From: an uncultured Candidatus Saccharibacteria bacterium
GTDB taxonomy: Bacteria; Patescibacteriota; Minisyncoccia; Phycocordibacterales; Zambryskibacteraceae
Direction of reading: 5' to 3'
DNA length: 64,000 nt
NCBI GenBank assembly: GCA_964349945.1
Contig: CAYGIH010000002.1
Span: forward strand, 125,492 to 189,491
The translations under genes were made by a program, and so were the position numbers. A model generated the notes under the pieces. It was given only the letters and a program-made list of their open reading frames with translations. It was not told where the DNA came from and made no database searches. Below are positions 1,498-52,544 of the stretch, in pieces. Each line of letters opens with the position of its first letter. Positions within the stretch are counted from its first letter, which is position 1.

Positions 1498-2712
1498 ATG
1501 ATTAAATATTCTTATCAAGCAAAAGATAAAGACGGCAAGACCTATACAGGTTTTCATGAAGCGAATAATAGAATAGAACTATATTCAAAAATTAGAGAAG
1601 AAGGAGGATCAGTTCTTTCGGTGAAAGAATTAAAAGGAAGTATTGATTTGGATACTATTATCGCGAGTATTTTTGGTGGAGTTAAGACGCATGACAAGAT
1701 ACTTTTAGCTCGTAATCTTGGTTCAATGATCAAAGCGGGGTTAGCGGTAACAAGGGCGCTTGCAGTAATGGAAAAACAAACAAAAAACAAAATACTTGCT
1801 GCTTTGTTGAGTGACCTATCAAACGATGTAAGTAAGGGGGAGACATTATCTGATTCTATGAAGAAACGACCACATGTGTTTTCTCAATTGTTTGTATCCA
1901 TGGTCAAAGCTGGGGAGGAGTCAGGCAACCTTGCTGATTCCCTTGAAATCGTGGCTAGTCAATTAGAAAAGTCGTATACATTAGTGAAAAAAGTACGTGG
2001 GGCATTAATATATCCAACGGTGATTCTCTTCGCAATGGTGGTAATTGCCATTCTCATGCTTATTTATATGGTCCCAACTCTTACTGCAACATTTAGTGGT
2101 ATAGGGATAGATCTTCCTCTTTCAACCAAAATTATTATTTATGTGAGTGATTTTTTAGTTAAACATACCTTTATTGTTGTCAGTGGATTGATCGGCATAA
2201 TTACACTCATTATTATGTTTTTTAGAACTACTACCGGTCATAAAACATTGGATTTGCTTACTATTAAACTCCCAGCCATTGGCACAATCACAAAGGAAAT
2301 ACAGAGTGCGAGGACAGCCAGAACGCTCTCATCACTATTATCAGCGGGTGTAGATGTTGTTGTTGCTATTGGGGTAACTATAGATGTTGTTCAAAATACG
2401 TATTATAAGAAAGTTTTAGAAGAAATAAGGGTTGCTATCCAAAAAGGGGAGCTTATGTCTGGAATATTTGAAAAAAATGATGATTTATACCCCCCGTTTG
2501 TTGGGGAAATGGTGGCAGTGGGAGAGGAGACAGGAAAGATTTCTGGCATGCTTTTAGAGGTAGCGGATTATTATGAAAAAGAAGTTGATGAAGCTACAAA
2601 AGATTTGTCTACAATTATTGAGCCAGTGCTTATGATTATTATCGGATTGGGTGTAGGTATTTTTGCTGTCTCAATGCTTGCCCCTACGTATTCTATGGTT
2701 AATTATATTTAA
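1498..2712 (+). CDS. pilC: Type IV pilus inner-membrane platform protein PilC/GspF
   Basis: About 400 aa with two GspF repeats and 3 TM segments, immediately after pilB. Stop/start overlap with the next gene. Confidence 0.85.
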   Translation: MIKYSYQAKDKDGKTYTGFHEANNRIELYSKIREEGGSVLSVKELKGSIDLDTIIASIFGGVKTHDKILLARNLGSMIKAGLAVTRALAVMEKQTKNKILAALLSDLSNDVSKGETLSDSMKKRPHVFSQLFVSMVKAGEESGNLADSLEIVASQLEKSYTLVKKVRGALIYPTVILFAMVVIAILMLIYMVPTLTATFSGIGIDLPLSTKIIIYVSDFLVKHTFIVVSGLIGIITLIIMFFRTTTGHKTLDLLTIKLPAIGTITKEIQSARTARTLSSLLSAGVDVVVAIGVTIDVVQNTYYKKVLEEIRVAIQKGELMSGIFEKNDDLYPPFVGEMVAVGEETGKISGMLLEVADYYEKEVDEATKDLSTIIEPVLMIIIGLGVGIFAVSMLAPTYSMVNYI

Positions 2713-3182
2713 TGAGAAAAGAAAAATTTATAAGAAAATCTCTTGGGTTTACATTTCTAGAGTTATTAATTGGTGTTGCTGTCTTCTCTCTTTTTGTTGT
2801 TGGAATATACAATGCATATTATTCCTTGCATGGATCAATTTTGGCATCTCATTCAAAAACGGTCGCATTAGATCTTGCAAACGAACAATTTGAACTAATC
2901 AAAAACCTCCCATATTTAAGTTTGGGAACTGTAGGTGGTAACCCCACAGGACTTATACAAGCAAACCAGTCAATTGTTAGAAGTGATATCACCTTTGATA
3001 TAAATACAACTATCCAATACAAAGATGATCCGTTTGATGGAGTGGCTGGTGGTGTTCCGGATGACACCTTACCAAATGATTATAAATTAGTTGAGGTTAC
3101 TGTATCTTGTTCAACATGTAAAAACTTCGTTCCTGTAGTTATAACAGGAAGATTTTCTCCGAAAAATCTTGAAAGTAATTAA
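2712..3182 (+). CDS. Prepilin-type N-terminal cleavage/methylation domain protein (minor pilin/pseudopilin)
   Basis: N-terminal GFTFLELLIGVAVF class III signal motif. ATGA overlap with pilC stop. Confidence 0.6.
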   Translation: MRKEKFIRKSLGFTFLELLIGVAVFSLFVVGIYNAYYSLHGSILASHSKTVALDLANEQFELIKNLPYLSLGTVGGNPTGLIQANQSIVRSDITFDINTTIQYKDDPFDGVAGGVPDDTLPNDYKLVEVTVSCSTCKNFVPVVITGRFSPKNLESN

Positions 3183-3789
3183 TATGAAAAAAAACGGATT
3201 CACTCTAATAGAATTTTTGATGGCAGTTTCTATGGTGACAATTATTATTGTCGTGGTCACTATGTTCATAAAAGATGTTTTTTCATTCAATTCTTCTTCT
3301 CAAGCAAGCATGACTTCAACACTTGAGGGTAGAAAGGTTTTAAGGACAATGGTAGCTGAAATTAGAGCTATCACTCAAGGTGTAGACAATTCTTATGCCA
3401 TAAATACAGCATCTACCAGCACTCTTGTTTTTTATGTAGATACCAACGGAGATAGTCTTTCAGATAAGATAAGATATTACTTGGATGCTCCTTCTAAATC
3501 AATAAAGAGAGGAGTAATCCTTGCTTCTGGGTCTCCCTCTGGATATTCTGCTTCAGAAGATGTTTCAACCTTAATAAATAATGTCTCAAATGGAACCTCA
3601 ACAGCACTATTTGATTACTTTGATGAGGATTATGCAGGCACTACCAGTCCTATGACTATTCCTGTAGATCCGGCTTCAATTAGAATAATTAGGATTACTG
3701 TTAAGATTGATAAAGATATAAATCGTTCTCCTATGTCAGTCACGGTCACCTCTGAAGCTGTGCTTAGAAATTTAAAGGATAATTTATGA
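3169..3789 (+). CDS. Prepilin-type minor pilin
   Basis: N-terminal KNGFTLIEFLMAVSMV prepilin motif. Confidence 0.6.
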   Translation: MKVINMKKNGFTLIEFLMAVSMVTIIIVVVTMFIKDVFSFNSSSQASMTSTLEGRKVLRTMVAEIRAITQGVDNSYAINTASTSTLVFYVDTNGDSLSDKIRYYLDAPSKSIKRGVILASGSPSGYSASEDVSTLINNVSNGTSTALFDYFDEDYAGTTSPMTIPVDPASIRIIRITVKIDKDINRSPMSVTVTSEAVLRNLKDNL

Positions 3790-4964
3790 TCAACAAAAAA
3801 ACAAATGGATACTTTCTGATTCAAGTGCTTGTTTTTGGAGCAGTGGCAACGATAGTTATTTCCGGTTTAATTATGTTTGCAATTACAAATACTAAACTCG
3901 GAAGGAGAGCCGTCTTATCTGAACAAGCCTTCCAGATAGCTGAGGCAGGTGTTGAGTACTACAGATGGCATTTATCGCATGCTCCTAGTGATTTTAAAGA
4001 TGGAACAAATGATGCGGGACCGTATGTGAAAAATTTTTATGATAAGAATGACAATTTGTTAGGCACTTATACACTGACTATCACTCCATCTGCAAATGGT
4101 AGCTCAGTCACTATAAAATCTGTCGGGACATCGAGCGTAGATCCAAGTGTAAAGAGAACTGTTGTTACAAAAGTAACCACCGGTACAGGGGTAACATTTC
4201 ACTATGGAGTACAATCAGGAGTAGGGGGATTTGTTATGGGTGGAAACTCAGTAGTTAATGGAAATGTTTATTCAAACGGAGATATTACTGGAGGTAATGG
4301 TTCCTCTATAACTGGTAGTGCCAATGCAGTTGGGACAATTTCAAACGTTTCTGTGGGAACGAGTCAGACAGGTGTTTTACCTCAAGATATGCCTGTGACA
4401 CAAGCTGAAATAGATGGATGGAAATTAGATGCTGCTACCACAACTTTTGTGGGTAATAAAACAATAAATGGTTCGAATAATAATCTTGGGCCAATGAAAA
4501 TTCAAGGTAACTTAATCCTAAGCAATAATGCTACTTTAACTATTACTGGCACCTTGTGGGTAACAGGAACTATTACTTTAGGAAATAACGCTACAATCAA
4601 TCTTTCTTCAAACTATGGTGCCACTGGTGGAATAGTTATCGCTGATGGTGATATTTCTCTTGGTAATGATGTTAATCTAAGCGGTTCGGGTACAACAGGA
4701 AGTTATCTAATGTTTATATCTCTTTCAACCTCCTCTTTGGCCATAGATATGGGTAATGGCAATGCTGCTACGGTTATGCTTTATGCCCCAAATGGAACAA
4801 TAAATGTGAAAAATAACGCTAGCCTGAGAGCTTTATCGGCTAAAACTATTAATCTGGGGAACAATGTAGAATTAAATTATGTTACAGGGATTATCGATAC
4901 CACCTTCAGCAGTGGACCTTCAGGGGGGTGGAGTATTGATGGTTGGCAAGAAGTAAGTAACTAA
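3786..4964 (+). CDS. PilX-like pilus-associated protein with C-terminal beta-helix-like repeats
   Basis: N-terminal hydrophobic anchor, then repeated G-N-N-A-T-[LI]-T/N-[LI]-S/T-G units (TLTITGTLWVTGTITLGNNATINLSSN). Confidence 0.45.
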   Translation: MINKKTNGYFLIQVLVFGAVATIVISGLIMFAITNTKLGRRAVLSEQAFQIAEAGVEYYRWHLSHAPSDFKDGTNDAGPYVKNFYDKNDNLLGTYTLTITPSANGSSVTIKSVGTSSVDPSVKRTVVTKVTTGTGVTFHYGVQSGVGGFVMGGNSVVNGNVYSNGDITGGNGSSITGSANAVGTISNVSVGTSQTGVLPQDMPVTQAEIDGWKLDAATTTFVGNKTINGSNNNLGPMKIQGNLILSNNATLTITGTLWVTGTITLGNNATINLSSNYGATGGIVIADGDISLGNDVNLSGSGTTGSYLMFISLSTSSLAIDMGNGNAATVMLYAPNGTINVKNNASLRALSAKTINLGNNVELNYVTGIIDTTFSSGPSGGWSIDGWQEVSN

Positions 4965-5000
4965 TGAGCGTCTTCGGTTGGAATCATTTATACTATAGGT

Positions 5001-5756
5001 ATGGTTAAACCCATTCTTGTTGCTAATTGGAAAAATTATCCAAATTCTTTGGAGGAAGTAAGAGATCTTCTTAGAGATATATCCAAAAATCCTACCCAAT
5101 TTAAAAAAGTTAATCTTTTTATTGCTCCTCCATTCGTGTACCTAGAACAAGTCGTTGATAAAATAAAAAAATTTGGTTCTTTGGCCGTTCAAGATGTGCC
5201 ACTTATGTTTGAAGGTACTTACACAGGAGAGTTGAGTATGCATATTCTAAAGAGTTTTGGAGTTAGACTAAGTATTGTTGGCCATAGTGAGAGGAGAAAG
5301 CTGGGGGAAACAAACGAAGTAATAAACCATAAAATAAAAAATATTTTGAGGGCAGGGATGATTCCACTTCTATGTGTTGGTGAGAAGGAAAAAGATTTGC
5401 ATGGAGAACATTTTGAATTTGTTCGAGAACAGATTGTTGCCTGTTTATATAAGATAAAAAAAGAGGATGTTTCTAAAATTATTATCGCTTATGAACCAGT
5501 GTGGACTATAGGTAAACGGGCAAAAGATGCAATGGAAAGAGAAAATATTGAACAGATGGTAATTTATATTAAAAAAATATTAACTGACCAATATTCCAGA
5601 GAAATCGCTGAAAAAATAAAAATTCTCTATGGGGGTTCTGTGGAGCCAACTAACGCAGAATCAATTTTTGGGTCTGGCGTTAATGGTTTCTTGATTGGAC
5701 ATTCATCAATTGATGCAGGATTTTTTAATAAAATTGTTAAAATGCTAAATAATTAA
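5001..5756 (+). CDS. tpiA: Triosephosphate isomerase
   Basis: VANWKNY N-terminus, catalytic GHSERR, YGGSV phosphate loop. Confidence 0.85.
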   Translation: MVKPILVANWKNYPNSLEEVRDLLRDISKNPTQFKKVNLFIAPPFVYLEQVVDKIKKFGSLAVQDVPLMFEGTYTGELSMHILKSFGVRLSIVGHSERRKLGETNEVINHKIKNILRAGMIPLLCVGEKEKDLHGEHFEFVREQIVACLYKIKKEDVSKIIIAYEPVWTIGKRAKDAMERENIEQMVIYIKKILTDQYSREIAEKIKILYGGSVEPTNAESIFGSGVNGFLIGHSSIDAGFFNKIVKMLNN

Positions 5757-47717: not shown

Positions 47718-48009
47718 TATAATTATCTGGTGTTAAGGAAAACTATAATCATCGGTGTTGCGGTTTATGCGGTCTCTATGTTTCTTGGATTTTTTGTCTA
47801 TAGAAATGTTTATTTGGCCCAGTCCTTGGAAGGGACACAAGATTATCTGGCTTCAGTGTTTTTGGCCTTGAGAAATTTATTTTTTTAAATAACAAAAAAC
47901 CATTTTTCTTTGCACGATAGTTTTCTACTGAAAACTTCTCTGCTCAAGCCAAGCTTTCAGCAAGGCACGAAAAATGGTTTTTTTGTATTACTTCTTTATG
48001 TCGTCCATA

Positions 48010-48213
48010 TTACATCTTTGCCTCACAAGCCTTACAACAATTCTTGTGATTAAATACTTCGTACAATGCAGAAATGCCCACTAAGACGTAAACAATCCTA
48101 GCTACTGTGGTGCCTACATACGTGGCAAGATCCCATCCACCTACGAGAGCTACAAGCAACCAATTCAAACCTCCGATAACCAACAAAACAAATGCAATTT
48201 TATGAAGCTTCAT
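48010..48213 (-). CDS. DUF378-family small membrane protein
   Basis: KIAFVLLVIGGLNW...IVYVLVGISALY matches the DUF378 pattern. Confidence 0.6.
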   Translation of the reverse strand: MKLHKIAFVLLVIGGLNWLLVALVGGWDLATYVGTTVARIVYVLVGISALYEVFNHKNCCKACEAKM

Positions 48214-49066: not shown

Positions 49067-49419
49067 ACATCCTCCGTGGAAATAAGTCAGGGAACTGGTG
49101 AATCAGTGAGATTCCAGCGAGTCTAATGTGAATATTAGCACATAATATGTAAAAAGTCAAGATAAATCCACTTGTCGTCACATGCTTTTAACGTGTCGTC
49201 ACAAGTATTTTTCTGCTGAAAAATCTCGCGACCCCGACTCAGCCCGTCGGCTTCTGTCTCGGACAAGTAAAAAACCGTGTCCCACAAGCTTTTTTACTTG
49301 TCCGCCCTCTTGGAATCTTCACACCTAGGAAACCCACGGTTTTCCCAATCCTTCCTTCACGGGAGACCAGATGTTCTCCCGACCCCTCTCCGTTCGAATC
49401 CAAGAGGATTCACTTCGTG

Positions 49420-49493
49420 TCCGCCCTCTTGGATTCGAACCAAGGACCCCAGAGGTATAAGCTCTGTGCTCTAACCAACTGAGCTAAGGGCGG
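49420..49493 (-). tRNA. tRNA-Ile (anticodon UAU)
   Basis: Cloverleaf: acceptor CCGCCCT/AGGGCGG, D GCTC/GAGC, anticodon stem CAGAG/CTCTG with loop CTTATAC, T arm CTTGG-TTCGAAT-CCAAG. No encoded CCA. Confidence 0.7.
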
Positions 49494-52214: not shown

Positions 52215-52303
52215 GGAGACGTGTCAGAGTGGTCTAACGTACCTCTTTGCTAAAGAGGCAAGCCTCTTAAAGGGCTTCGAGGGTTCGAATCCCTCCGTCT
52301 CCG
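52215..52303 (+). tRNA. tRNA-Ser (anticodon GCU), class II with long variable arm
   Basis: Acceptor GGAGACG/CGTCTCC, anticodon stem CCTCT/AGAGG with loop TTGCTAA, variable arm AAGCC...GGCTT, T arm GAGGG-TTCGAAT-CCCTC. Terminator at 52321-52345. Confidence 0.75.
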
Positions 52304-52544
52304 CAAATATAAAAAATACAGGCTTCTGCCTGCATTTTTTATATTCTGCGTTGAGGTAGGAGGGAGAGAAAGACGGAGCACGACGGTGCGAGTCGGGGTA
52401 GCGGAAAATTTCAGTAGAAATTTATCCGTGACCGAATCCCTCCGTCTCCGCAAATTGAAAGAAAAATGAGTGGTGGGTTGTATTAAGGATAGAAAGACAA
52501 TAGAAATCTAAAATCTTTCTTAATTTAACTTCTAACCTTAAAAC

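What the first reader, a model, noticed from the sequence alone, without database searches (positions are those of the whole stretch)
52286..52455. 23-bp direct repeat of the tRNA-Ser 3' end 125 bp downstream of the gene: att-site-like remnant enclosing GC-rich filler
CGAATCCCTCCGTCTCCGCAAAT occurs at 52286-52308 (the tRNA-Ser 3' end plus 5 nt) and again at 52433-52455. The 124 nt between them is GC-rich (GGAGGGAGAGAAAGACGGAGCACGACGGTGCGAGTCGGGGTAGCGG). It contains inverted partial copies of the same tRNA segment (GGAGGGA, GACGGAG). This is the architecture left by a tRNA-targeting integrative element that has largely been deleted. Alternatively it is a miniature element.
Basis: seen in the sequence. 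Interest (0 to 1): 0.6.

Follow-up and report, generated by a model that had tools for sequence, protein, structure and literature searches.

The report
Mini hairpin element mirroring tRNA ends
The repeated tRNA-Ser tail is one arm of a complete ~150-base structured insert, one of a previously undescribed family with well over a hundred copies beside tRNA and tmRNA genes of Parcubacteria; each copies its neighbour's end in both orientations, so it is not the scar of a lost prophage.

Summary
The 23-nt repeat is real: exact at 52286-52308 and 52433-52455, with 0 expected by chance. It is not a leftover of a deleted island.

The second copy is the 3' strand of a long closing helix. Its 5' strand (52347-52365) is a degenerate inverted copy of the same tRNA end. 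The helix encloses a 63-nt three-way-junction core (52371-52433).

The same layout recurs after tRNAs of at least 16 amino-acid types and after tmRNA: tRNA end, spacer or terminator, inverted copy, core, direct copy. I found it in Parcubacteria genomes and in at least 120 metagenome contigs. The arms always match the local tRNA.

The window holds two more members after tRNA-Ile, plus a diverged variant at 47897-47977.

The core shows strong covariation and an invariant G.U pair that exists only on the tRNA-sense strand. No Rfam family, phage or plasmid record, or searchable paper matches it.

Closely related genomes differ by whole units. The tRNA end is duplicated over 4-55 nt, and the ancestral flank lies after the distal copy.

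Best reading: a small non-autonomous insertion element family. How it copies itself is unknown. A host-functional tRNA-trailer RNA is the main rival.

The parts
52215..52303 (+). tRNA-Ser(GCU), intact; no encoded CCA
   Evidence: ARAGORN; Rfam tRNA, 46.9 bits
52286..52308 (+). X(1): proximal copy of the 23-nt repeat = T-loop C56 to the tRNA 3' end plus 5 trailer nt
   Evidence: Exact repeat, 0 expected by chance; sequence
52306..52345 (+). AT-rich palindrome / intrinsic terminator between the tRNA and the element (arms 52306-52323 and 52328-52345; G+C stem 52319-52332 followed by a T-run). By analogy with occupied versus empty loci in relatives, it is probably brought in with the element.
   Evidence: the repeat finder I1, 18-nt arms, 94% complementary; terminator scan; polarity of insertions in L010/L007, L048/L042 and L033/L034
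52347..52370 (+). X': degenerate inverted copy of the tRNA 3' end and 5' strand of closing helix P1, followed by the GAGAA junction (52366-52370). TGCG 52347-52350, GAGG 52353-52356 and GGAGGGA 52359-52365 are separated by TT and TA bulges.
   Evidence: MFE fold -46.2 kcal/mol, z = -4.5; comparison with the reverse complement of the repeat
52371..52433 (+). 63-nt 'type A' three-way-junction core. P2a 52372-52374/52392-52394. Internal loop GGA/GA. P2b 52378-52381/52386-52389 with GACG loop. GG linker 52395-52396. P3 52397-52412/52417-52433 with AGUA loop, a bulged A at 52424 and the invariant G.U pair 52401-52429.
   Evidence: Alignment A1; covariation counts; independent RNAalifold structure; family model R1 82.5 bits, E 6e-22
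52433..52455 (+). X(2): distal exact copy of the 23-nt repeat and 3' strand of P1. 52437-52443 pairs with GGAGGGA; 52445-52452 pairs with GAGG..TGCG. It is contiguous with what is probably the ancestral tRNA-Ser downstream flank.
   Evidence: polarity inferred from empty/occupied pairs

Best explanation
SHOWN. The locus holds one complete member of a widespread, unannotated family of small (about 100-160 nt), non-coding, strongly structured units. These units lodge at the ends of tRNA and tmRNA genes in Parcubacteria (Patescibacteria). Every unit has the order: tRNA 3' end X(1), short spacer (usually a terminator hairpin), inverted copy X', conserved core, direct copy X(2). X' and X(2) pair to close the core. 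Related genomes differ by whole units. In each clean comparison the flank after X(2) is the ancestral tRNA flank, and the trailer or terminator after X(1) is new.

INFERRED. The unit is a non-autonomous, selfish insertion element that enters at, or just inside, the 3' end of a tRNA gene, typically at the palindromic T-loop box TTCGAA. It leaves the gene intact because the segment from the entry point to the gene end is duplicated. Three facts bear on how it copies itself: X' is the Watson-Crick reverse complement of the local tRNA end; the duplicated length varies from 4 to 55 nt; and the same cores occur beside unrelated tRNAs. From these I infer that the arms are templated from the target at or after insertion, by DNA-synthesis-dependent copying. 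In this scheme the new strand folds back at the terminator hairpin, switches template into a core through the TTCGAA microhomology, then returns to the T-loop. This differs from a conservative integrase or a fixed-stagger transposase. The conserved three-way junction is presumably what the unknown machinery, or an RNA/ssDNA intermediate, recognises. This mechanistic step is the least certain part of the account.
For: Local anatomy: the repeat is exact. The interval folds at -46.2 kcal/mol (z = -4.5), with the second copy paired to 52347-52365.

Family in an unbiased sample (recG neighbourhoods of 80 species plus the window, 0.99 Mb). Copies of each tRNA's own 3' end lie 100-170 nt downstream of tRNA-Ser(GCU), tRNA-Ser(ACU) and tRNA-Ile(UAU), with lineage-specific sequences. 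Family elements also follow tRNA-Ile(GAU) and tmRNA. A covariance model finds 34 copies of at least 20 bits. Of these, 22 lie within 175 nt downstream of a tRNA or tmRNA on the same strand. All but one of the 16 scoring above 45 bits do so.

About 50 of the first 82 have a co-oriented tRNA or tmRNA ending 50-150 nt upstream, covering at least 16 amino-acid types, with X(2) and/or X' of 10-26 nt.

Core structure: P2b and P3 are 96-98% paired. 13 of 20 pairs show compensatory double changes. 0 of 500 shuffles reach the observed values on four of the five covariation measures and 1 of 500 on the fifth. RNAalifold gives the same helices.

Arms: in 10 of 12 informative cases, including all 5 tmRNAs with G3.U70, X' is the Watson-Crick complement of the 3' strand and not a copy of the tRNA 5' strand. 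P1 arms are about 92% Watson-Crick.

Insertion/deletion polymorphism between close relatives:
- L010 versus L007: 113 nt, with a 17-nt duplication ATCCAAGCGGGCGGACA.
- L112 versus L128: 161 nt.
- L048 versus L042: 148 nt.
- L202 versus L195: 276 nt, two units.
- L033 versus L034: 112 nt.

Duplications reach about 55 nt and include trailer and terminator (L137, L045). Many orthologous tRNA sites are empty. Cores 94-100% identical sit beside different tRNAs (window 49197-49259 versus L024; Leu versus tmRNA). Nested and tandem units occur. No coding capacity. No neighbouring gene family recurs in 120 loci.
Against: No transposase, recombinase or reverse transcriptase was linked to the elements, so mobility is inferred from indels only. 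Each indel could equally be a deletion between the direct repeats.

The core is conserved far more deeply than a passive insertion would need. About 23 positions are invariant in the 87-nt aligned stretch. One G.U pair is invariant (21/21) and a second is mostly G.U. Both can form only on the tRNA-sense strand. This points to selection on an RNA, or on one specific DNA strand.

Copies within one genome are not near-identical, so there is no sign of a recent burst.

In the window X(2) is perfect while X' carries about 7 differences. This does not fit a simple simultaneous 'reflection' of both arms.

No empty allele of this very locus was found (0 hits). That result is uninformative, because the organism may be absent from that collection.

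Variable duplication length has no precedent among characterised transposition systems, so the template-switch scheme is conjecture.
Confidence: 0.55

Rival explanations
1. Host-functional structured RNA embedded in tRNA/tmRNA trailers. Possible roles are a processing, stability or termination module, or a switch in which X' pairs either with the tRNA's own 3' end or with X(2) and so controls tRNA maturation. On this reading the repeat exists because the helix must match the tRNA.
For: Strong covariation, conserved junction nucleotides, and an invariant sense-strand G.U pair. The highest-scoring copies are almost always co-oriented with, and just 3' of, the tRNA. X' is complementary to both X(1) and X(2), so alternative pairing is physically possible. 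Diverged variants sit in terminator-like A/T-armed hairpins followed by T-runs after protein genes (window 47897-47977). This suggests a role at RNA 3' ends.
Against: Presence/absence varies between close relatives and many orthologous sites are empty, so the unit is dispensable. A terminator with a T-run usually lies between the tRNA and X', with no room for a promoter, so the unit would be transcribed only by read-through. At least three unrelated core types share the same arm layout. Some copies lie upstream of the tRNA on the opposite strand. P1 pairs through the discriminator and trailer, unlike an RNase P or RNase Z substrate. Tandem, nested and truncated copies occur.
Confidence: 0.25
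2. Miniature integrative element with a folded single-strand attP, as in CTX-phi/IMEX elements or integron attC. In a small ssDNA circle, X' and X pair into a hairpin that mimics the duplex tRNA 3' end. A recombinase encoded elsewhere exchanges one strand with the tRNA gene. Replication then fixes the order X(1) ... X'-loop-X(2).
For: The bulges in P1 (TT and TA here; single-nt bulges in L137) recall the extrahelical bases that such sites need. Structure is specific to one strand. Entry is at the T-loop, a classical integrase crossover sublocation. An island with a Rep protein, which indicates an ssDNA-type replicon, sits at tRNA-Ser(GCU) in L021.
Against: Conservative recombination cannot explain how the same core acquires arms matching at least 16 tRNA types and tmRNA. 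It also cannot explain duplications ranging from 4 to 55 nt. No recombinase is associated with the elements. A ~150-nt circle has no replication function.
Confidence: 0.1
3. One reading: an att-site scar. A kb-scale tRNA-Ser-integrating element was almost entirely deleted, leaving attL, attR and GC-rich debris.
For: Direct repeat of the tRNA 3' end starting in the T-loop. Real islands do use this tRNA in relatives (L021).
Against: The 'debris' is a full-length, high-scoring member of a conserved family (82.5 bits). That family has the same size and order at scores of other tRNA sites. An inverted copy of the tRNA end is always present, which att scars do not have. There are no integrase fragments. 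Clean occupied/empty pairs differ by exactly one small unit.
Confidence: 0.03
4. Chance repeat or assembly artefact.
For: None beyond the fact that the source is a metagenome assembly. One relative (L022) does show a scaffold-gap duplication.
Against: 0 of 100 shuffles give even a 3-mismatch second copy. An independent assembly is identical. The architecture recurs in well over a hundred independent contigs.
Confidence: 0.01

Closest known systems
tRNA-site integrative elements (phage and genomic-island attL/attR) and their integrase-less derivatives (CIMEs)
   Same: Insertion at the 3' part of a tRNA or tmRNA gene, often from the T-loop. The gene is kept intact by a duplicated 3' segment. Direct repeats bound the insert. 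The ancestral flank lies after the distal repeat.
   Different: Only ~150 nt, with no integrase and no integrase remnant. It always carries an inverted copy of the target as well. The same core has arms for many different tRNAs. Repeat length is variable (4-55 nt).
MITEs and other interspersed structured repeats (Correia, ERIC, RPE of Rickettsia, REP/REPIN-RAYT)
   Same: Small, non-coding, multi-copy, hairpin-forming, intergenic, polymorphic between strains. From memory, RPEs can also sit in RNA genes such as tmRNA.
   Different: The inverted 'terminal repeats' are not element-specific; they are copied from the neighbouring gene. There is no fixed target-site duplication. There is a near-exclusive preference for tRNA/tmRNA ends. 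The three-way-junction core shows RNA-like covariation. No partner transposase is known.
Folded-hairpin recombination sites (CTX-phi attP(+), integron attC)
   Same: By my recollection of those systems, two inverted copies of a target-like sequence flank a variable structured loop, forming a strand-specific hairpin with bulges; the integrated order X ... X'-loop-X is the same.
   Different: The target is a tRNA end rather than dif or attI. No Xer or IntI link was tested or seen. The arms vary with the target.
tRNA-linked small RNAs (3' external transcribed spacer sRNAs, tRNA-snoRNA/miRNA dicistrons) and tRNA-like minihelices
   Same: A structured RNA-like module immediately 3' of a tRNA, in the same orientation. 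The lower 12 bp of the closing helix repeat the acceptor and T-stem sequence.
   Different: A terminator usually intervenes. The helix continues through the T-loop, discriminator and trailer, so there is no T-loop and no free 3' tail. The 5' strand is the Watson-Crick complement, not the tRNA 5' strand: the tmRNA G3.U70 pair is lost. The unit is dispensable.
Quasipalindrome template-switch mutagenesis / fold-back inverted duplications
   Same: These produce templated inverted and direct copies of sequence adjacent to a hairpin. This is the only known process that naturally yields arms matching whatever lies next to the hairpin.
   Different: It is known as a mutational process acting over a few to ~20 nt. 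It is not known as the dispersal mechanism of a conserved element family.

Membership tests
tRNA-integrating genomic island / prophage (att scar) | Direct repeats that include the 3' end of the tRNA gene bound the element | tested here: met
   23-nt exact repeat from the T-loop to 5 nt past the gene
tRNA-integrating genomic island / prophage (att scar) | Integrase/recombinase gene, or a recognisable pseudogene, between the repeats | tested here: not met
   Only 124 nt lie between the repeats. The sole ORF there is a spurious antisense 67-aa frame over the tRNA. For contrast, L021 has a 488-aa serine recombinase.
tRNA-integrating genomic island / prophage (att scar) | One element, one cognate tRNA: the attP identity block is fixed | tested here: not met
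   The same core type has arms matching at least 16 tRNA types and tmRNA
MITE | Terminal inverted repeats conserved among copies and shared with an autonomous IS | tested here: not met
   The arms equal the local tRNA end and differ between copies. No autonomous partner was seen in 200 loci.
MITE | Target-site duplication of fixed length | tested here: not met
   Duplications of about 4, 5, 8, 17, 23 and about 55 nt
MITE | Small, non-coding, multi-copy, presence/absence polymorphism | tested here: met
REP/REPIN | Association with a RAYT (Y1 transposase) gene flanked by the repeats | not tested
   Only element neighbourhoods were clustered. No genome-wide protein census was possible.
Any Rfam family (ribozymes, riboswitches, sRNAs, tRNA-like) | Covariance-model match at or near the gathering score | tested here: not met
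   Only tRNA and tmRNA reach the gathering score. Nothing credible appears at E <= 10 over the Ser, Ile and L080 elements.
tRNA / pseudo-tRNA / acceptor-T minihelix mimic | The 5' strand derives from the tRNA 5' acceptor and T-stem strands; the T-loop and a free discriminator/3' tail are retained | tested here: not met
   X' is the Watson-Crick complement of the 3' strand in 10 of 12 informative cases. T-loop bases are paired (GAUUCG/CGAAUC) and pairing runs through the discriminator and trailer. ARAGORN and Rfam call no tRNA there.
Hairpin-attP integrative element (CTX-phi/IMEX, integron attC) | Integrated order target-copy ... inverted copy - loop - target-copy, with a strand-specific folded site | tested here: met
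   The order is seen in all members. G.U pairs occur on one strand only.
Hairpin-attP integrative element (CTX-phi/IMEX, integron attC) | Cognate tyrosine recombinase (XerCD/IntI) and its core site | not testable with these tools
   No recombinase is linked to the elements. This requires genome-wide co-occurrence analysis or biochemistry.
Intrinsic terminator (for the 52306-52345 part only) | G+C-containing stem followed by a T-run directly after the gene | tested here: met
   Stem 52319-52332 plus CATTTTTTAT

The most novel reading that the evidence does not exclude
These units are a new kind of self-propagating genetic element. It consists of a conserved three-way-junction nucleic acid, acting as RNA or as one DNA strand. 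It spreads among tRNA and tmRNA genes by templated copying: fold-back plus template switching through the palindromic T-loop box TTCGAA. At each new site it builds its own closing helix from the target's sequence, without a dedicated transposase or integrase. An equally novel alternative is that the core is an unrecognised ribozyme, or a protein-binding RNA, that gates tRNA 3'-end maturation through competition between the tRNA end and its decoy copy for X'.
Probability: 0.3. Interest if true: 0.9.

Novelty: new variant of a known kind. Interest (0 to 1): 0.72.

Why it matters
1. Patescibacteria genomes are tiny and, in my general understanding (not checked here), regarded as poor in repeats. 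Here an abundant structured repeat family occupies roughly one tRNA or tmRNA flank in five in the sampled loci. The 64-kb window alone holds three canonical copies plus one diverged variant.

2. Direct repeats of tRNA 3' ends are the standard signature used to delimit prophages and genomic islands. These units will generate false att calls in candidate phyla radiation (CPR) genomes.

3. The 63-nt core is a well-supported new structured motif. It has covariation, invariant wobble pairs and a tandem-GA internal loop. Its partner is unknown, which makes it a concrete target for ribozyme, protein-binding or ssDNA-recombination assays.

4. Arms that mirror whatever tRNA lies next door imply a copying mechanism not described for any mobile element. 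If confirmed, this would be a new route of sequence dispersal that exploits the universal T-loop box.

5. The units place a sequence complementary to the tRNA 3' end, plus a decoy copy, in the same transcript region. They may therefore affect tRNA expression or processing.

Tried and rejected
- Known RNA families. Rfam at gathering score over the window, and at E <= 10 over three element regions, gave nothing beyond tRNA and tmRNA.

- Second tRNA, tRNA-like gene, split or permuted tRNA, intron in the T-loop. All rejected. No cloverleaf is called, hairpin loops have the wrong size, and X' is not the tRNA 5' strand.

- PBS-like primer site copied from mature tRNA. Rejected. By my reading of the sequences printed (no script tested this), X' complements the genomic trailer, not CCA.

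- Hammerhead, HDV-like, twister, pistol and hatchet ribozymes, K-turn, retron msr/msd, TnpB/IscB omega-RNA, IS110 bridge RNA. I considered these by eye. There are no core motifs and no adjacent RT, TnpB or recombinase gene.

- Empty allele of this locus. An exact-junction search of metagenome contigs found 0 hits. This is uninformative.

- Phage or plasmid origin. No BLAST hit in 50,697 phage or 72,556 plasmid records. The single viral-contig pattern hit (L083) lies in a GC-rich stretch with no tRNA nearby and looks like a chance match.

- Synteny-based empty site for tRNA-Ser. The flanking genes (cupredoxin-like, 123-aa protein, sigma factor) are not syntenic in the 80 relatives. The polarity of insertion had to be taken from other tRNA sites.

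- G.T versus A.C mismatch asymmetry in P1. The count was 8 versus 4 in only 23 scorable helices, which is not significant.

- Recurrent neighbouring protein. The largest cluster covers only 6 of 120 loci.

- Literature. Five full-text searches found no description of the family.
Full report
OBSERVATION. The window contains tRNA-Ser(GCU) at 52215-52303/4. The string CGAATCCCTCCGTCTCCGCAAAT occurs at 52286-52308 and again at 52433-52455, and nowhere else even with three mismatches. None of 100 shuffles gave a second match. The first copy starts inside the T-loop (TT|CGAAT) and runs 5 nt past the gene. An independent Logan assembly of run ERR3094292 has the identical sequence.

LOCAL ANATOMY. The 124 nt between the copies fall into two parts.
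- 52306-52345 is an AT-rich palindrome with a G+C stem and a T-run. It is an intrinsic terminator for the tRNA (GC 0.29).
- 52347-52432 has GC 0.52 and folds very strongly (-46.2 kcal/mol, z = -4.5).

In that fold the second repeat copy is not free. UCCCUCC and UCUCCGCA pair with GGAGGGA, GAGG and UGCG at 52347-52365. This 5' strand is a degenerate inverted copy of the same tRNA end, and I call it X'. The helix encloses two hairpins that form a three-way junction.

THE SAME ARCHITECTURE IN RELATIVES. The adjacent RecG protein retrieved 80 species-level relatives (62-82% identity). All are Parcubacteria/Paceibacteria-type MAGs. Scanning every tRNA in these loci showed many cases of the same arrangement. 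A copy of that tRNA's own 3' end lies 100-170 nt downstream, and an inverted copy lies closer in. Hosts include tRNA-Ser(GCU), tRNA-Ser(ACU) and tRNA-Ile(UAU), and family elements also follow tRNA-Ile(GAU) and tmRNA. The repeat sequence differs from lineage to lineage and always equals the local gene.

The window itself has a second unit after tRNA-Ile(UAU), on the minus strand: X' at 49393-49408, a different 'type C' core, and X(2) at 49296-49314. A third unit follows it, with a type A core at 49197-49259.

At least three core types share the arm layout:
- Type A: CGAAAGACGGAG-hp-CGAGUCGGGGUCGC-hp-GUGACCGAAU.
- Type B: UCGAAGCCCGAUUGAG-hp-CCAAUCGGGRUACUGA-hp-UCGAAU.
- Type C: GGGGUCGGGAG...GGGAAAACCGUGGGUUUCC.

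A covariance model of type A found 34 copies of at least 20 bits in 0.99 Mb. Of these, 22 lie within 175 nt downstream of a tRNA or tmRNA on the same strand, although such flanks are under 2% of the sequence. A few lie upstream on the opposite strand, pointing away from the gene. A few diverged variants sit in A/T-armed terminator-like hairpins after protein genes, including window 47897-47977.

BREADTH. Of the first 82 matches, about 50 have a co-oriented tRNA or tmRNA ending 50-150 nt upstream. These cover Trp, Gly, Asp, Cys, Ser, Val, Arg, Gln, Tyr, Leu, Glu, Ala, Thr, Met and Ile tRNAs and tmRNA. Exact X(2) and/or X' copies of 10-26 nt are present. A handful are chance hits in GC-rich coding DNA. 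Six show the mirror-image arrangement upstream of a tRNA: a direct copy of the 5' end, the core, an inverted copy, then the real gene. No Rfam family matches. No phage or plasmid record matches. Five literature searches found nothing.

THE CORE IS A SELECTED STRUCTURE ON THE tRNA-SENSE STRAND. I aligned 21 canonical 63-nt cores with flanks.
- Helices P2b and P3 are 96-98% paired, and 13 of their 20 pairs show double compensatory changes.
- 0 of 500 shuffles reach the observed values on four of the five measures and 1 of 500 on the fifth; slid-register controls collapse to about 40% paired.
- RNAalifold predicts the same helices without my input.
- One G.U pair is invariant (21/21) and a second is mostly G.U. 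On the opposite strand these would be C.A mismatches.
- A GGA/GA internal loop, a GG linker and a bulged A are conserved.

In the window these features map as follows: P2a 52372-52374/52392-52394, P2b 52378-52381/52386-52389, P3 52397-52412/52417-52433.

THE ARMS ARE 'REFLECTIONS', NOT A PSEUDO-tRNA. Some tRNAs or tmRNAs have a wobble or mismatch in the acceptor stem. In 10 of 12 such cases, including all five tmRNAs (G3.U70), X' is the Watson-Crick complement of the 3' strand and not a copy of the real 5' strand. X' also complements the discriminator and 1-8 trailer nucleotides of the genome, not CCA (my reading of the sequences printed; not tested by a script). The T-loop bases are themselves paired (GAUUCG/CGAAUC). 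This rules out a degenerate tRNA duplicate, a minihelix substrate mimic, and copying from mature tRNA.

INSERTION POLYMORPHISM AND POLARITY. All-against-all comparison of tRNA neighbourhoods gave clean occupied/empty pairs:
- L010 has 113 nt that L007 lacks, bounded by a 17-nt duplication ATCCAAGCGGGCGGACA.
- L112 versus L128: 161 nt.
- L048 versus L042: 148 nt.
- L202 versus L195: 276 nt, two units.
- L033 versus L034: 112 nt.

In the pairs where both flanks can be compared (L010/L007, L112/L128, L033/L034; L048/L042 less cleanly), the sequence after X(2) continues as the ancestral tRNA flank, and the trailer or terminator after X(1) is new. Perfect duplications range from about 4 nt to about 55 nt. 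The longest include trailer and terminator (L137, L045). The right end of each core resembles a degenerate T-arm 5' half, for example GUGACCGAAUCC against GGGUUCGAAUCC. Many orthologous tRNA-Ile sites are empty. Only about 7 of ~35 scorable tRNA-Ser(GCU) genes carry a unit, and the nearest relative does not. Cores 94-100% identical occur beside different tRNAs in different contigs. One example is the window core 49197-49259 against L024, identical over 46 nt even though RecG is only 67% identical.

WHAT IT IS NOT. It is not a decayed island. The insert is a full-length family member with no coding remnant. A real 5-kb island at tRNA-Ser(GCU) in L021 carries a large serine recombinase and a Rep protein, with only a 12-nt repeat and no inverted copy or core. 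It is also not a chance repeat or an assembly artefact.

MOST LIKELY EXPLANATION (confidence about 0.55). The locus holds a small non-autonomous insertion element of a new family. The element targets tRNA and tmRNA gene ends and duplicates the end, so the gene survives.

Shown: family membership, helix role of the repeat, indel polymorphism, polarity, and arms templated from the local gene.

Inferred: the arms match any tRNA, X' is a Watson-Crick reflection, and duplication length varies. I therefore favour DNA-synthesis-dependent copying over a conservative integrase or a fixed-stagger transposase. In this scheme the new strand folds back at the terminator hairpin to make X'. It then switches into a core through the palindromic TTCGAA box that ends every X', and returns at the T-loop-like 3' end of the core. 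This step is conjecture.

Points against: no enzyme has been identified. There are no near-identical intragenomic copies. In this window X(2) is perfect but X' has about 7 differences. The core's deep, strand-specific conservation argues for selection on an RNA or on one DNA strand.

RIVALS.
(i) A host-functional tRNA-trailer RNA, acting in processing, stability or termination, or as a switch in which X' competes between the tRNA end and its decoy (about 0.25). It is supported by covariation and orientation. It is weakened by dispensability, by intervening terminators, by the multiple core types, and by opposite-strand and truncated copies.
(ii) A CTX-phi/attC-like folded single-strand attP used by a recombinase acting in trans (about 0.1). 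As I recall those systems, the integrated order is the same, but this cannot explain retargeting or variable duplications.
(iii) An att scar (about 0.03).
(iv) An artefact (about 0.01).

COMPARISON AND NOVELTY. The element works like a miniature tRNA-site integrative element or MITE. It fails the defining tests of both. It has no integrase or fixed cognate tRNA, and it has neither element-specific terminal repeats nor a fixed target duplication. It shares the layout of hairpin-attP systems, but no recombinase link could be tested. I rate it a new variant of a known kind (small non-autonomous insertion elements at tRNA genes). There is a substantial chance, about 0.3, that the copying mechanism or the core's activity is categorically new.

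CAVEATS. All data are MAG or metagenome assemblies. The metagenome loci were selected by the motif itself. E-values from the quick-calibrated model are rough. No expression data were available. The literature library covers open-access papers only.

Noticed in passing
window 49296-49409 (- strand), directly 3' of tRNA-Ile(UAU) 49420-49493: A second family member with a different ('type C') core. X' is TCCTCTTGGATTCGAA at 49393-49408, the core spans about 49322-49392, and X(2) is TCCAAGAGGGCGGACAAGT at 49296-49314. Orthologous units occur in L004 and L010 with arms tracking each species' tRNA-Ile. L003 and L005 are empty.
   Followed up: yes
window 49185-49271 (- strand): A third family member: a type A core at 49197-49259 (84 bits) with short arms ACTTGTC/GACAAGT. 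It lies after the terminator that follows the type C unit. Its core is 100% identical over 46 nt to one beside tRNA-Ser(ACU) in L024, although RecG is only 67% identical between the two genomes.
   Followed up: yes
window 47897-47977 (- strand): A diverged three-way-junction variant (28.5 bits). It is closed by A/T-rich arms CCATTTTTC/GAAAAATGG and followed by a T-run, after the DUF378 gene at 48010-48213. It is probably a branched terminator. Similar variants are in L017, L026, L036, L037 and L048.
   Followed up: partly
window 52480-52498: GTATTAAGGATAGAAAGAC is 79% identical to the X'/core start GTAGGAGGGAGAGAAAGAC (52356-52374) at a spacing of 124 nt. It may be the decayed start of a further unit after X(2).
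   Followed up: no
L003 2540-2627, L024 4801-4888, L030 5405-5492, L036 2758-2845, L052, L065, L070, L071, L076, L077, L079: Class II tRNA-Ser genes with anticodon ACU sit next to tRNA-Ser(GCU) in at least 11 relatives. By my general knowledge, A34 in a bacterial Ser tRNA is unusual. The window has none.
   Followed up: no
window 49420-49493 and most recG loci: tRNA-Ile with anticodon UAU lies next to recG across these Parcubacteria. From memory, this is a rare way of reading AUA in bacteria.
   Followed up: no
L021 373-5470: A genuine ~5-kb integrated element at tRNA-Ser(GCU). It has a large serine recombinase (3927-5393, overlapping the tRNA end), a Rep ORF2/G2P-like replication protein (2971-3879), and a 12-nt direct repeat CACACTCTCCGC.
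   Followed up: partly
L115 ~2440-3110, L088 ~2880-3405, L089 ~94-560: A ~220-aa ORF family with an N-terminal HTH_23 domain and a C-terminal segment that looks LAGLIDADG-like by eye (VAGVMIYWGEGDK). It lies immediately upstream of tRNA-Gly genes that carry a type A unit. It is present in 6 of 120 metagenome loci and is a possible nuclease lead.
   Followed up: partly
L040, L070, L030, L041, L112 (X' regions): An extra conserved hairpin module AGCA-stem-loop-stem-UGCGU is inserted exactly between the acceptor-complement and the T-stem-complement of X'. This makes P1 itself a three-way junction. The stems covary.
   Followed up: no
L001 / L002 (Logan ERR3094292): The independent assembly breaks inside tRNA-Ser, between window positions 52243 and 52275, on both contigs. 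This suggests assembly-graph branching at the tRNA, from shared sequence or population variants.
   Followed up: no
L022 2440-2566: An apparent 49-nt duplication of the tRNA-Ser 3' half flanks a run of N. It is a scaffolding artefact, not a family member.
   Followed up: yes
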